Source: Escherichia coli
GTDB lineage: Bacteria; Pseudomonadota; Gammaproteobacteria; Enterobacterales; Enterobacteriaceae
Length of the DNA: 64,000 nt
NCBI RefSeq assembly: GCF_030013205.1
Contig: NZ_CP122648.1
Direction: 5' to 3' (one strand)
Part shown: piece by piece, positions 49,701 to 52,700 of the stretch
How the letters are laid out: the number at the start of each line of letters is the position of its first letter
Position numbering within the stretch: the stretch's first letter is position 1
Position numbers: made by a program

Positions 49701-52700
49701 CATACATCACGCTGGTAGCTACCGCTTTAACGCGGGTATCCATCGCCGCGTCGTTTAGCGCCATGCCGCCCCAGCCACAAATACCGAGCAGCCCGATACG
49801 GTTGCGATCTACCTCTTTTTGCAGCCCTAAGAAATCCACCGCCGCGCTGAAATCTTCAGTGTTGATATCCGGTGAGGCGACGTTTCGCGGATAGCCGCCG
49901 CTTTCCCCGGTGTAAGAAGGATCGAACGCCAGGGTAACAAACCCTCGTTCCGCCAGCGTCTGCGCATACAAGCCGCTGGATTGCTCTTTCACCGCGCCAA
50001 ATGGCCCACTGACCGCAATCGCCGCCAGCTTGCGATCGCCACGGTCTTTAGGCAGGTAAAGATCGCCCACTAAGGTGATGCCATATCGGTTCGGGAACGA
50101 GACTTTACGGTGATCGACTTTCTGGCTCTCGGCGAACGTTTTATCCCATTTATCTGTCATGGACACAGGGGCATTAGGATTGGTTGAATCAGCATAACTC
50201 ATTGTCGTGACTCCACTTAATGATGCGAAAAGCAGCATGGTCGGCATCGCGGTTTTTAGCGTGCGGGTGAAGGCTTTCATAAAAATCCCCATAAAAAACA
50301 ACAGAGAGATACAGGTTTCCGACGGACAACGCTGCGGTGCTTTACTTTGATGGGGTCATTATAGTGAGCAGAATTAGTGCTGATTAGGGGGCGATTAATG
50401 CTAAGATTAATACCATATTGTTATAAATTAATGCGGAGATTGCCGGCATGAAGGGGGGATGTTTCAATGGCGAAAAGGGAGAACTACAACGAGCTGTACC
50501 TGTTTATGCAGGTGGTGCGGGAAGGCAGCTTTACCGCAGCGGCTCAGCGGCTGGGTCTTGCTCAGTCAGGAGTCAGCCGTTCTGTTCGCGAGCTTGAAGA
50601 AAGGCTGGGCGTCCAGCTGCTAGTGCGCACCACGCGTAAACTGTCGCTGACACAAGCAGGCGAGCAGCTCTACCAGAAGACGGCATCTGGATTTGAAATG
50701 TTAGATCTTGGGCTTGCCACGCTGGCGCACTATCGAGAGACGCCCTCCGGCACGGTGCGTATCAATGCCAGCCAGCACGCGATTGATAAATGCCTGCTGC
50801 CAAAGCTGGCGGTATTTAAACAGAGATATCCTGATATCCGGCTTGAACTGATAAATGAGAGCCGGTTCGTCGATATCATCGAGGAAAGATTCGATGCAGG
50901 TGTCCGCCTGGGGCCTGAAGTCGGCCAGGGTATGGTCGCGGTACGCATCACGCCCGATATGGAGATGGCAATTGTGGGGACTCCGGAACATTTTCGTCGC
51001 TATGGTTTTCCGCAAACCCCGGCGGATTTAAAGGCGCATCCCTGTATCGCCTATCAGTTTGCCGACGGCAGCGTATACCAGTGGGAACTCAATCAGGATG
51101 ATAAAAAAATCACTCATCGCCCTGAAGGGCAATGGGCCCTATCCGACAGCTATATGGAAGCAGAAGCCGCCCGGCTGGGCCTCGGATTGGCCTATGTTCC
51201 TGTTGAACTGGTCGCGGATGATTTAGAACACGGTAAGCTTATCAGGGTGTTGCAGCGTTACAGCCTGCGAATGGAGGGATTGTTTCTCTATTACCCTCAT
51301 CGCAACGTCTCCCCCGCCCTGCGGATGGTCATTGATACATTGAAAATCTGAACGTTAACAACGACCGACTCTTTACTGTGCAATATTGTGTCAGGTAGTC
51401 CCTCTGCGTTCAATTCCAGGGTCTGCTTTGAGCGAGAAAGAGAGGACTATCCAGCAATGGAGATCACCCAAAAGAAAAAACCACCTGGCTCCCTCGACAA
51501 CCTTCATCCGGGCATTGAGCCTCAATCAACATTTTTATATCTGTCAGGTTACTTCATTATGAAAACTGATCATCATCGTTGTTTTTGTTGCAATAGTAGA
51601 ATACGCGTATTTATTCCTCCATCTCTATTAATAACGGCAATAAACTGTTCACTTCACTGATATTTAAAATATGTATCCTTTTCAAGCTGTTCAGCGGCGT
51701 AAGAAAAAGTATTGATTATGAATTCGACGATTTAACCATTTCTGGCTGATTGGTAATCATCTGTGATTAATGCTGGTCTATTGATTACGCCAGCACCCTC
51801 TCTAGCTTATTCACCGCCGCCACATACTTCGCCGGATTTTTATCTTTCAGCACCGCCAGATTACGTTGCTTCCAGCGAATAGCCGGAAGATGCTGAATTT
51901 CAGGATAGCGATACCGCGACCAGTCAGGGCTGTTTTGCTTAAAACTGAGCAAGAACTCGCGATCCAGATCCGTAAGATGTGACTTCAACGCCTGCGGCAG
52001 CAAAGTCGTTACTGACAGCAGCGATTCCAGCGACGTTTCCTGCTGAGTCATCCCCGAAAATTCCTGAGCATACAGCGTCGTGATCCGCTCTATATCCCAG
52101 TTTGGGGCCAGCAACTCGGCAATGGGGCGGGGATGGCCTGCCAGATAACAAAGAAAACCGTCAAAGATCTCCCGCATCAGTCCCGGTTTCTCCAGCATAT
52201 TCAGCACATCAAACAGATCGCGCGGGTGCTGACGATCAAGCGCTGCGCAGATTTTACCGCCATAAAGATCCGCCAGCGAGACGACACTCATGGTGGTGAA
52301 GCCATACTCCATTTCCACACGTTCGCACACAGGCATTTCTGCCGGAGGCAACAACAGCCCGCGCCAGACCGGGCTAACCTCGATCTTAATCTTTGCATCA
52401 GCGGTATTCACAATGATGCGCTTTTCATCCGCTTTATTTTCCTGCCGAATCGCGGTGATCCCCGGTCTGCCGTTCAGCGATGCAGTAATCCTCTTCAAAG
52501 CGTCGTTGATAGCCGCCAGATCAGTATCGCGATCCGCAAAGCTCTTATACGCCAGATCAATATCCACCGACAGACGGGGAAAATCCTGCACAAACAAATT
52601 GATTGCCGTGCCGCCTTTCAACGCGAAACAGGACTCCTTCGCCACATGCGGCAGAGCAGCCATCAACAGCTTAACCTGCCGGGCATAACTATCACGCAGA

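What the first reader, a model, noticed from the sequence alone, without database searches (positions are those of the whole stretch)
51559..51790. Relic second copy of the ykgR / rpmJ2 module at the island boundary
About 230 bp here match the ykgR gene body and downstream sequence (32283-32400) joined directly to the rpmJ2 3' end and terminator (33085-33190), as if a second ykgR-rpmE2-rpmJ2 unit once existed and lost its middle. The ykgR-like frame is broken and lacks a Shine-Dalgarno. The relic sits exactly where the defence island meets core sequence, suggesting it marks an old duplication or recombination junction.
Basis: seen in the sequence. Interest (0 to 1): 0.45.

Follow-up and report, generated by a model that had tools for sequence, protein, structure and literature searches.

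The report
Decayed second ykgR–ykgMO copy near thrW
This is a dead, roughly 230-base leftover of an old extra copy of the E. coli ykgR–ykgM–ykgO gene cluster; about one in six E. coli genomes carry it, genome annotation already flags part of it as a pseudogene, and it is an ordinary evolutionary scar rather than a working element.

Summary
Window 51563-51679 matches 32285-32401 (ykgR codons 12-33 plus 48 bp downstream; 91%, E 7e-42). Window 51679-51795 matches 33072-33188 (last 11 codons of ykgO/rpmJ2 plus its downstream hairpin; 77%, E 4e-20). The two blocks are colinear, with the 670-bp middle missing (Zur box, ykgM, most of ykgO).

The window is E. coli K_EC180. RefSeq already annotates the ykgR part there as an N-terminally truncated pseudogene.

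The relic occurs in at least 909 of 5,426 complete E. coli genomes, always in the deleted form and always between an MFS–hydrolase–LysR cassette and thrW. I found no intact second copy in E. coli genomes, in 23 metagenome contigs carrying the relic, or next to homologues of the flanking cassettes in other genera.

The relic groups with E. coli's own copy rather than with E. marmotae, E. albertii or E. fergusonii. This points to an old duplication on the E. coli branch, or import from an unsampled close relative.

Its position at the defence-island edge is secondary. In this lineage a 2.8-kb microhomology-mediated deletion clipped the relic's tail and fused it to the AbiE genes. Elsewhere the relic runs 36 bp further and lies away from any island boundary.

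It is an ordinary pseudogene remnant of low interest.

The parts
51563..51631 (+). ykgR-like pseudogene fragment: codons 12-33 plus stop. It has no start codon, and a TGA sits immediately upstream at 51560-51562.
   Evidence: RefSeq annotates it as pseudogene IGX36_RS24940, 'small membrane protein YkgR, incomplete, missing N-terminus'.
51632..51679 (+). Copy of the 48 bp downstream of ykgR (32354-32401). It is nearly identical to the resident copy, with 1 fixed difference.
51678..51680 (.). Internal deletion junction, ATCCT|TTTCAAG. The equivalent of 32402-33071 is missing (Zur-box promoter, ykgM, and the 5' three-quarters of ykgO). O166:H15 and O169:H41 alleles keep 8 to 9 more bases here.
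   Evidence: The Zur-box palindrome is found only at 32675-32694.
51679..51716 (+). ykgO (rpmJ2) 3' fragment: the last 11 codons plus stop, reading FQAVQRRKKKY*. It carries replacements at family-invariant K and G residues.
   Evidence: No YkgO among the 120 proteins listed has this tail; all keep FKAVQG-type tails.
51717..51795 (+). Copy of the ykgO downstream region, which is also the 3' end of the doubtful opposite-strand ORF ykgL. It includes a clipped version of the ykgO-distal hairpin.
   Evidence: Hairpin energies are -22 kcal/mol at the true locus, -18.7 in the full relic (L005) and -11.7 in the window.
51784..51795 (.). Microhomology (ATTACGCCAGCA) at the 2.8-kb deletion that fused the relic to the AbiE/type I R-M island.
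   Evidence: comparison with metagenome contig L135, which carries relic-DUF1471-SDR-LysR2-AbiEii.
51439..51562 (.). 124-bp spacer of unknown origin between the horizontally acquired MFS-hydrolase-LysR cassette (47851-51438) and the relic. Its right end is the 5' truncation point of the ykgR copy.
   Evidence: It has no similarity to the ykgR upstream region.
32252..33224 (+). Resident intact ykgR-ykgM-ykgO unit with its downstream hairpin. This is the paralogous source/partner of the relic; homology with the relic spans 32285-32401 and 33072-33224.

Best explanation
The feature is a non-functional remnant (pseudogene relic) of a second copy of a segment of at least 0.94 kb, running from mid-ykgR through ykgM and ykgO to about 115 bp downstream of ykgO. 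It lies 19 kb from the resident copy, in the variable zone next to the thrW tRNA gene.

Inferred history:
1. A duplication on the E. coli branch, after its split from E. marmotae, E. albertii and E. fergusonii, or import of the homologous segment from an unsampled very close relative.
2. An early 670-bp deletion removed the Zur-regulated promoter, ykgM and most of ykgO. The remaining ykgO codons then drifted.
3. The ykgR copy stayed intact for some time, and/or was partly re-homogenised by gene conversion from the resident copy.
4. The ykgR copy lost its promoter and first 11 codons, either when or before a horizontally acquired MFS-hydrolase-LysR cassette came to lie on that side.
5. Neutral decay followed, with strain-specific small and large deletions. 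One of these is the 2.8-kb deletion that abuts the relic to the AbiE/type I R-M island in this window.

The relic does nothing today beyond possibly contributing a weakened hairpin. Shown: the homology, the truncations, the distribution, the absence of intact copies, the phylogenetic placement and the deletion junction. Inferred: the order of events, the period of past function of the ykgR copy, and the gene conversion.
For: Two colinear blocks have E 7e-42 and 4e-20.

RefSeq annotates a ykgR pseudogene at this spot in five strains examined.

The relic is present in at least 909 of 5,426 complete E. coli genomes. The outer homology breakpoints are the same in the five alleles aligned. All 5 strains and all 23 relic-bearing metagenome contigs have the middle deleted, and every relic-bearing contig that extends upstream of the relic carries the LysR cassette there.

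No second ykgO 5' part exists in E. coli.

Distance matrices and NJ trees place the relic closer to E. coli's own copy than to other species. For block 1 the distances are 0.07-0.10 to the E. coli copy against 0.15-0.26 to E. marmotae, E. albertii and E. fergusonii. For block 2 they are 0.21-0.27 against 0.30-0.35. The relic and the E. coli copy also share the lack of a 5-bp insertion.

In block 2 the 28 fixed differences split about evenly: 9 relic-derived, 10 derived in the resident copy, 9 ambiguous.

The ykgO fragment carries K>Q and G>R at positions invariant in 120 YkgO-family proteins. This indicates long neutral drift.

In the ykgR fragment, every site that separates all or nearly all relic alleles from the resident copy is synonymous (0 replacement changes in 22 codons). 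Individual E. coli alleles carry many replacement changes, such as L>P, I>T and F>S in O157. This fits a past period of constraint followed by decay.

The 48 bp after the ykgR stop shows 1 fixed difference against about 29% divergence between E. coli and E. marmotae. This fits a gene-conversion patch.

The junction with the island is a microhomology deletion.

There is no Rfam family and no promoter-like site at the relic.
Against: The donor or ancestor with an intact second copy was not found anywhere, so duplication versus import from a close relative is unresolved.

The two blocks differ strongly in divergence (about 3-5% against about 18% fixed differences). This needs an added assumption, either gene conversion or prolonged selection on the ykgR copy.

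The synonymous-only pattern rests on only 4-6 sites.

E. ruysiae, E. whittamii and cryptic clade I were not examined.

Expression was not tested, so residual activity of the hairpin or of the 33-codon alternative-frame ORF (51559-51660, open in the 5 strain alleles and in the distinct contig alleles that could be read here, apart from one low-coverage contig) cannot be formally excluded.
Confidence: 0.85

Rival explanations
1. The relic is a xenologue. A ykgR-ykgMO segment from a different Escherichia lineage or another genus arrived by horizontal transfer into the thrW hot spot, for example riding with one of the flanking LysR cassettes or an island, and then decayed.
For: thrW is a known integration hot spot (PMC7545054). 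Both flanking modules are horizontally mobile. The MFS-hydrolase-LysR cassette is 92-93% nucleotide-identical to Citrobacter, Klebsiella and Kluyvera. The SDR-LysR2 pair is about 90% amino-acid identical in Pantoea, Enterobacter and Atlantibacter. Block 2 is 21-27% diverged from every sampled E. coli allele. ykgMO occurs on some plasmids of other genera.
Against: None of the 78 species-representative loci holding the LysR cassette has ykgR, ykgM, ykgO or relic-like DNA within 10 kb. The SDR-LysR2 contexts examined in other genomes do not have them either. The relic is nearer to E. coli's own copy than to E. marmotae, E. albertii or E. fergusonii in both blocks, and it shares E. coli-specific indel states. 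Its downstream part corresponds to ykgL-region DNA; named ykgL-family matches come only from Escherichia. A donor would therefore have to be a very close, unsampled relative.
Confidence: 0.25
2. The similarity is chance or low-complexity AT-rich sequence, or an assembly artefact.
For: The region is AT-rich and short.
Against: E-values are 7e-42 and 4e-20 with colinear ungapped blocks. The same structure appears in hundreds of independent complete genomes and in 23 metagenome contigs. It is independently annotated as a pseudogene.
Confidence: 0.01
3. The relic is still functional. Possibilities are a short hydrophobic peptide, either from the 33-codon alternative-frame ORF at 51559-51660 or from a 23-codon YkgR-like ORF restored by slippage in the A-run, or a transcription terminator for the LysR gene or the convergent downstream genes.
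For: The 33-codon ORF starting at ATG 51559 is open in the 5 strain alleles and in the distinct contig alleles that could be read here; the exception is L112. That contig (L112) has AAA instead of AAAA, which gives an in-frame 23-codon YkgR-like ORF. The hairpin is retained in full-length relics (-18.7 kcal/mol, z -4.7).
Against: There is no Shine-Dalgarno and no promoter-like site. Replacement and silent differences between alleles in the ATG frame are roughly 4:3, as expected without selection (my count). L112 is a 1.7x-coverage contig whose LysR, MFS, PaoD and AbiEii genes are all broken by frameshifts, so its AAA is probably a sequencing error. In the window the hairpin is clipped and weak (-11.7 kcal/mol, z -2.05). 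The relic is absent from most E. coli genomes.
Confidence: 0.04
4. The two copies are the footprints of insertion of the whole roughly 18-kb ecp-pao segment. On this view they are flanking direct repeats made when that block entered at the ykgR-ykgO locus, rather than a small local duplication.
For: The repeats are direct and bracket ykgL-ecpRABCDE-ykgJ-yagU-paoABCD plus the cassette. The DNA downstream of ykgO differs completely between Escherichia species: there is no ecp operon after ykgO in E. marmotae or E. albertii.
Against: Mobile-element target duplications are a few bp, not 0.9 kb. The repeats are 5-20% diverged, whereas the cassette that now forms the relic's left junction is a recent arrival (93% identical to Citrobacter), so the present junctions are not the original ones. 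No genome with the predicted 'empty' or recombined single-copy state was seen. The large deletions found use other end-points: IS1 in strain PO06101, and position 32445 in E. fergusonii.
Confidence: 0.1

Closest known systems
ykgR (small membrane protein YkgR; Pfam PF28062, NCBIfam NF041474) and the Zur-regulated ykgM-ykgO (L31B/L36B) operon of E. coli
   Same: The relic is homologous to ykgR codons 12-33 plus downstream DNA, and to the last 11 codons of ykgO plus its downstream hairpin. Order and orientation are the same.
   Different: It lacks the ykgR start, promoter and first 11 codons, the Zur box, all of ykgM and 35 of the 46 ykgO codons. The retained ykgO codons carry replacements at invariant residues. 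It is not a functional member of either family.
RefSeq/PGAP pseudogene 'small membrane protein YkgR, incomplete; partial in the middle of a contig; missing N-terminus' (e.g. IGX36_RS24940 in NZ_CP062203.1, CEP72_RS31920 in O157 FDAARGOS_293)
   Same: It is the same object at the same coordinates: locus positions 3184-3252 of L001 correspond to window 51563-51631.
   Different: The annotation covers only the 69-bp ykgR part. The attached ykgO 3' fragment, the internal deletion and the evolutionary history are not annotated.
Stand-alone second ykgM of EHEC O157:H7 in the urease/tellurite island
   Same: It is another extra copy of part of the ykgMO unit in some E. coli (80.7% identical to ykgM).
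   Different: It is an intact ykgM only, at a different locus, with no ykgR, ykgO or relic-like flanks. It is unrelated to the relic.
Gene remnants at tRNA-linked integration hot spots (e.g. the yagP LysR fragment and intF beside thrW/CP4-6 in K-12)
   Same: The relic lies in the same paoD-thrW interval, which is shaped by repeated insertion and deletion.
   Different: The relic derives from a chromosomal paralogue 19 kb away, not from an island or prophage gene.

Membership tests
YkgR small membrane protein (NF041474 / PF28062) | Complete ORF of about 33 codons with a start codon and the N-terminal MKENKVQQISH segment | tested here: not met
   Homology starts at codon 12. A TGA lies directly upstream, and ATG 51559 is out of frame. 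PGAP flags the feature as 'missing N-terminus'.
YkgR small membrane protein (NF041474 / PF28062) | Conserved C-terminal transmembrane segment (KLINIVVFVAIVEYAYLFLHFY) | tested here: met
   The window allele reads KLIIIVVFVAIVEYAYLFLHLY. The differences shared by all or nearly all relic alleles against the resident gene are all synonymous.
Type B ribosomal protein L36 (YkgO, PF00444) | Full 46-residue protein ending in an NPRFKAVQG...-type tail | tested here: not met
   Only 11 codons remain. They read FQAVQRRKKKY, a tail seen in none of the 120 family members listed.
Zur-regulated ykgMO operon | Zur-box palindrome upstream of ykgM, and a ykgM coding sequence | tested here: not met
   The palindrome TGTTATGTTATAACATAACA occurs once in the window, at 32675-32694, and not at the relic. 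The ykgM equivalent is deleted.
Pseudogene / decayed segmental duplicate | Significant colinear homology to a functional locus, together with disabling truncations and allele variation consistent with neutral drift | tested here: met
   Replacement substitutions differ among alleles, there are strain-specific indels, and 16 of 117 and 9 of 159 aligned sites are polymorphic among four alleles.
Island attachment-site repeat (attL/attR of a thrW-integrated element) | Direct repeat of the 3' end of thrW at the island/core boundary | tested here: not met
   The relic has no similarity to thrW. The thrW-like repeat lies elsewhere, for example at L002 6949-6982. The window junction is a microhomology deletion.

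The most novel reading that the evidence does not exclude
E. coli's ancestor carried two working copies of the small membrane protein gene ykgR, and initially of the zinc-sparing ribosomal protein genes. The second ykgR was kept by selection long after its ykgMO partner was lost, and the surviving fragment is still occasionally exchanged with the resident gene by gene conversion. A stronger version is that the fragment still yields a short hydrophobic peptide in some strains.
Probability: 0.08. Interest if true: 0.3.

Novelty: already known. Interest (0 to 1): 0.12.

Why it matters
It matters little on its own. The relic records that the ykgR-ykgMO unit was once present twice on the E. coli branch. 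It is a convenient neutral marker for the history of the very fluid paoD-thrW interval: the order in which two LysR-linked cassettes arrived, and the deletions that bring defence islands up against older DNA. It also cautions that a feature sitting 'exactly at an island boundary' can owe that position to a later deletion. It has no implication for zinc homeostasis, ribosome composition or phage defence.

Tried and rejected
1. I looked for an intact second copy in E. coli. Distant BLAST searches with the missing middle and with the ykgO 5' part showed extra ykgM hits. These proved to be the O157 urease-island ykgM paralogue, which has no relic-like flanks. ykgO has no second copy.

2. I tested whether the relic travelled with the MFS-hydrolase-LysR cassette. 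Seventy-eight loci from species-representative genomes have the cassette but no ykgR, ykgM, ykgO or relic.

3. I tested the same idea for the SDR-LysR2 side. Contexts in Atlantibacter and two others show no ykg genes.

4. I scanned metagenomes for relic-type block 2 attached to an intact ykgO. There were 23 true hits, all in the deleted form, and 50 chance 17-mer hits.

5. I searched for YkgO proteins with the relic's FQAVQRR tail. None were found.

7. I tested whether the gene downstream of the relic in O157 is ykgL-like. It shows no similarity and is DUF1471/BhsA-like.

8. I looked for the missing ykgR 5' half on the far side of the cassette and found nothing.

9. Rfam and promoter/terminator scans found nothing at the relic.

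10. I considered the E. fergusonii layout, where ykgR sits next to thrW, as a possible ancestral or recombinant state. It is an independent deletion ending at position 32445, not a relic-type junction. The same applies to an IS1-mediated deletion in E. coli PO06101.
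Full report
**What is there**

The window is E. coli; it is 100% identical to strain K_EC180, NZ_CP062203.1. It runs in the reverse of the K-12 map order: OYE oxidoreductase, ykgR (32252-32353), ykgM (32702-32968), ykgO (32968-33108), ykgL, ecpRABCDE, ykgJ, yagU, paoABCD, then a variable zone ending at thrW (60917-60992) and proA.

A BLASTN search of 51400-51999 against the whole window gives two colinear, ungapped, same-strand matches. The first is 51563-51679 = 32285-32401 (106/117, E 7e-42). The second is 51679-51795 = 33072-33188 (90/117, E 4e-20). Nothing else comes near significance.

Block 1 is ykgR codons 12-33 with its stop, plus the next 48 bp. Block 2 is the last 11 codons and stop of ykgO plus the downstream region. 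The equivalent of 32402-33071 is missing. That stretch holds the perfect 20-bp Zur-box palindrome at 32675-32694 (unique in the window), all of ykgM, and 35 of the 46 ykgO codons.

**State of the coding remnants**

The ykgR-like frame reads KLIIIVVFVAIVEYAYLFLHLY*. It is preceded directly by TGA (51560-51562). The nearby ATG (51559) is one base out of frame because the relic has AAAA where ykgR has AAA. No Shine-Dalgarno or promoter-like site is present.

The ykgO fragment reads FQAVQRRKKKY*. None of the 120 YkgO-family proteins listed has this tail; all keep FKAVQG-type tails. The K>Q and G>R changes therefore reflect drift after inactivation.

Block 2 also overlaps the 3' end of the annotated opposite-strand ORF ykgL. 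That ORF is frame-broken in this window, and its named matches come only from Escherichia, where it occurs in many frameshifted versions. I treat this DNA as the ykgO-distal non-coding region.

That region contains a strong hairpin at the resident locus (-22 kcal/mol, z -7.2). The hairpin is retained in full-length relics (-18.7 kcal/mol) and is clipped and weak in the window (-11.7 kcal/mol, z -2.05).

**It is already annotated**

RefSeq/PGAP lists a pseudogene at exactly this place in K_EC180: 'small membrane protein YkgR, incomplete; partial in the middle of a contig; missing N-terminus' (IGX36_RS24940). The same annotation appears in O157, O169:H41, O166:H15 and strain LR-58-2. The attached ykgO piece is not annotated.

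**Distribution and context**

At least 909 of 5,426 complete E. coli genomes carry the relic. K-12 does not; there paoD abuts the yagP fragment and the CP4-6 prophage.

In all five strains examined, and in every one of the 23 relic-bearing metagenome contigs that extends upstream of the relic, the relic follows an MFS-alpha/beta-hydrolase-LysR cassette. It is always in the deleted form.

Three right-hand contexts exist:
- relic, a DUF1471-like gene, SDR and LysR2, in about 400 genomes including O157;
- relic, a LysR2 fragment and thrW, in the island-free strain LR-58-2;
- a clipped relic followed directly by AbiEii, as in the window.

The cassette (window 47851-51438) is 92-93% nucleotide-identical to Citrobacter amalonaticus, Klebsiella spallanzanii and Kluyvera, so it is a recent horizontal arrival. 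In 78 loci from other species it is never accompanied by ykgR, ykgM, ykgO or relic-like DNA. The SDR-LysR2 pair is likewise a widespread module with no ykg genes beside it elsewhere.

**The island boundary is secondary**

In other strains the homology to the ykgO downstream region continues 36 bp past the window's end-point, to 33224. Relative to the island-free strain, window 51796-60898 replaces 456 bp. This 9.1-kb stretch holds AbiEii/AbiEi, type I hsdR/M/S and an integrase remnant.

Metagenome contig L135 has the order relic, DUF1471, SDR, LysR2, AbiEii. Aligning it with the window shows that the window lacks 2.8 kb. The break lies between ...ATTACGCCAGCA|TTAACC in the relic hairpin and ...ATTACTCCAGCA|CCCTCT just past the AbiEii stop. 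This is a microhomology-mediated deletion. The relic therefore does not mark an integration or ancient recombination site. It was clipped and brought against the island by a later deletion.

**Is there an intact second copy anywhere?**

I found none in what could be searched.
- A distant BLAST search with the ykgO 5' part finds 5,068 places in 5,061 records, all at least 95% identical. There is no diverged second copy.
- Extra ykgM hits in EHEC are a stand-alone paralogue beside the urease genes, without relic-like flanks.
- A metagenome scan with a relic-specific 17-mer returned only deleted-form relics.

**Origin**

I obtained the resident loci of E. albertii, E. marmotae and E. fergusonii.

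In block 1 the relic is 0.07-0.10 from E. coli's resident copy but 0.18-0.26 from the other species. In block 2 it is 0.21-0.27 from E. coli's copy against 0.30-0.35. The relic and the E. coli copy also share the absence of a 5-bp insertion seen in E. marmotae and E. albertii.

Polarising the 28 fixed block-2 differences with the outgroups gives 9 relic-derived, 10 derived in the resident copy and 9 ambiguous. This describes two lineages that split on the E. coli branch and have drifted about equally since. It fits an old duplication within the E. coli lineage. Import from an unsampled very close relative cannot be excluded, and distant import is unlikely.

Block 1 is much less diverged than block 2: 4-6 near-fixed differences in 117 bp. 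All of those in the coding part are synonymous, and there is only one in the 48 non-coding bp, although that stretch is about 29% diverged between E. coli and E. marmotae. This pattern suggests that the ykgR copy stayed under selection for a time after ykgMO was deleted, that a gene-conversion patch from the resident copy refreshed this part, or both. This is inference from few sites.

Within E. coli the relic alleles differ by replacement changes (for example L>P, I>T and F>S in O157) and by small indels, including a 9-bp slippage deletion at the junction. This is as expected for neutral decay.

**Residual function**

None is indicated. A 33-codon alternative-frame ORF from ATG 51559 is open in the alleles that could be read here. 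However, it lacks a ribosome-binding site and shows about as many replacement as silent differences between alleles (my count).

The single allele that restores a 23-codon YkgR-like ORF comes from a 1.7x-coverage contig full of frameshifts. Rfam finds nothing here.

**Verdict**

The suggested link to the island boundary is not supported.

The object is an ordinary, partly annotated pseudogene remnant. It is useful as a marker of the history of the paoD-thrW interval, but it is neither surprising nor functional.

Background on YkgR as a 33-residue membrane protein comes from PMC7549839. Zur control of ykgM/ykgO is from my own knowledge; PMC9825181 is listed as a relevant paper, but only its title and abstract were seen. 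thrW as an integration hot spot is from PMC7545054.

Noticed in passing
window 47851-51438: The three-gene cassette (MFS transporter, alpha/beta hydrolase, LysR regulator) is 92-93% nucleotide-identical to Citrobacter amalonaticus, Klebsiella spallanzanii and Kluyvera, and is present across many Enterobacterales. It looks like a recently exchanged module inserted between paoD and the relic.
   Followed up: partly
window 51796-60898: This island has no complete integrase: AbiEii/AbiEi (51785-53495), type I R-M hsdR/hsdM/hsdS (53737-59740), an unassigned 217-aa ORF (59900-60553) and an integrase C-terminal remnant (60537-60902) beside thrW. It replaces 456 bp of the island-free strain.
   Followed up: partly
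window 33143-33370 (minus strand), ykgL: The ykgL reading frame is split over three frames in this strain. Database homologues with a named source come only from Escherichia and occur in many frameshifted lengths, so ykgL is probably not a real gene. A 17-bp-stem hairpin (about 33157-33195, -22 kcal/mol) that probably ends ykgMO transcription lies inside it.
   Followed up: partly
L085 (O157:H7 EDL933 record NZ_CP124742.1), locus 6000-6263: EHEC strains carry an extra, intact ykgM (80.7% nucleotide identity) next to the urease gene cluster and a hok/gef gene, without ykgO or ykgR.
   Followed up: partly
L098/L102 (E. fergusonii) 10001-10713; L184 (E. coli PO06101) 3351-5703: In E. fergusonii, ykgR is followed after about 90 bp by an integrase remnant, thrW and proA. 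The whole ykgMO-ecp-pao stretch is absent. An E. coli seawater isolate has a similar but independent IS1-associated deletion.
   Followed up: partly
window 41670-41870 (minus strand): Rfam family IS009 (RF02111) matches at 187.8 bits between ykgJ and yagU.
   Followed up: no
window 29580-31779: An intact alpha/beta hydrolase (294 aa) and an OYE-type flavin oxidoreductase (380 aa) lie upstream of ykgR. In K-12, only the short ykgP pseudogene is annotated just upstream of ykgR in the stretch examined.
   Followed up: no
L112 (human gut metagenome contig) about 4560-4600: One relic allele has AAA instead of AAAA after the ATG, giving an in-frame 23-codon YkgR-like ORF. The contig has 1.7x coverage and its neighbouring genes are frameshifted, so this is probably a sequencing error.
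   Followed up: yes
window 51439-51562: A 124-bp spacer lies between the cassette and the relic. I detected no homology outside relic-bearing E. coli. O157-type alleles carry an extra 18 bp at its left end.
   Followed up: partly
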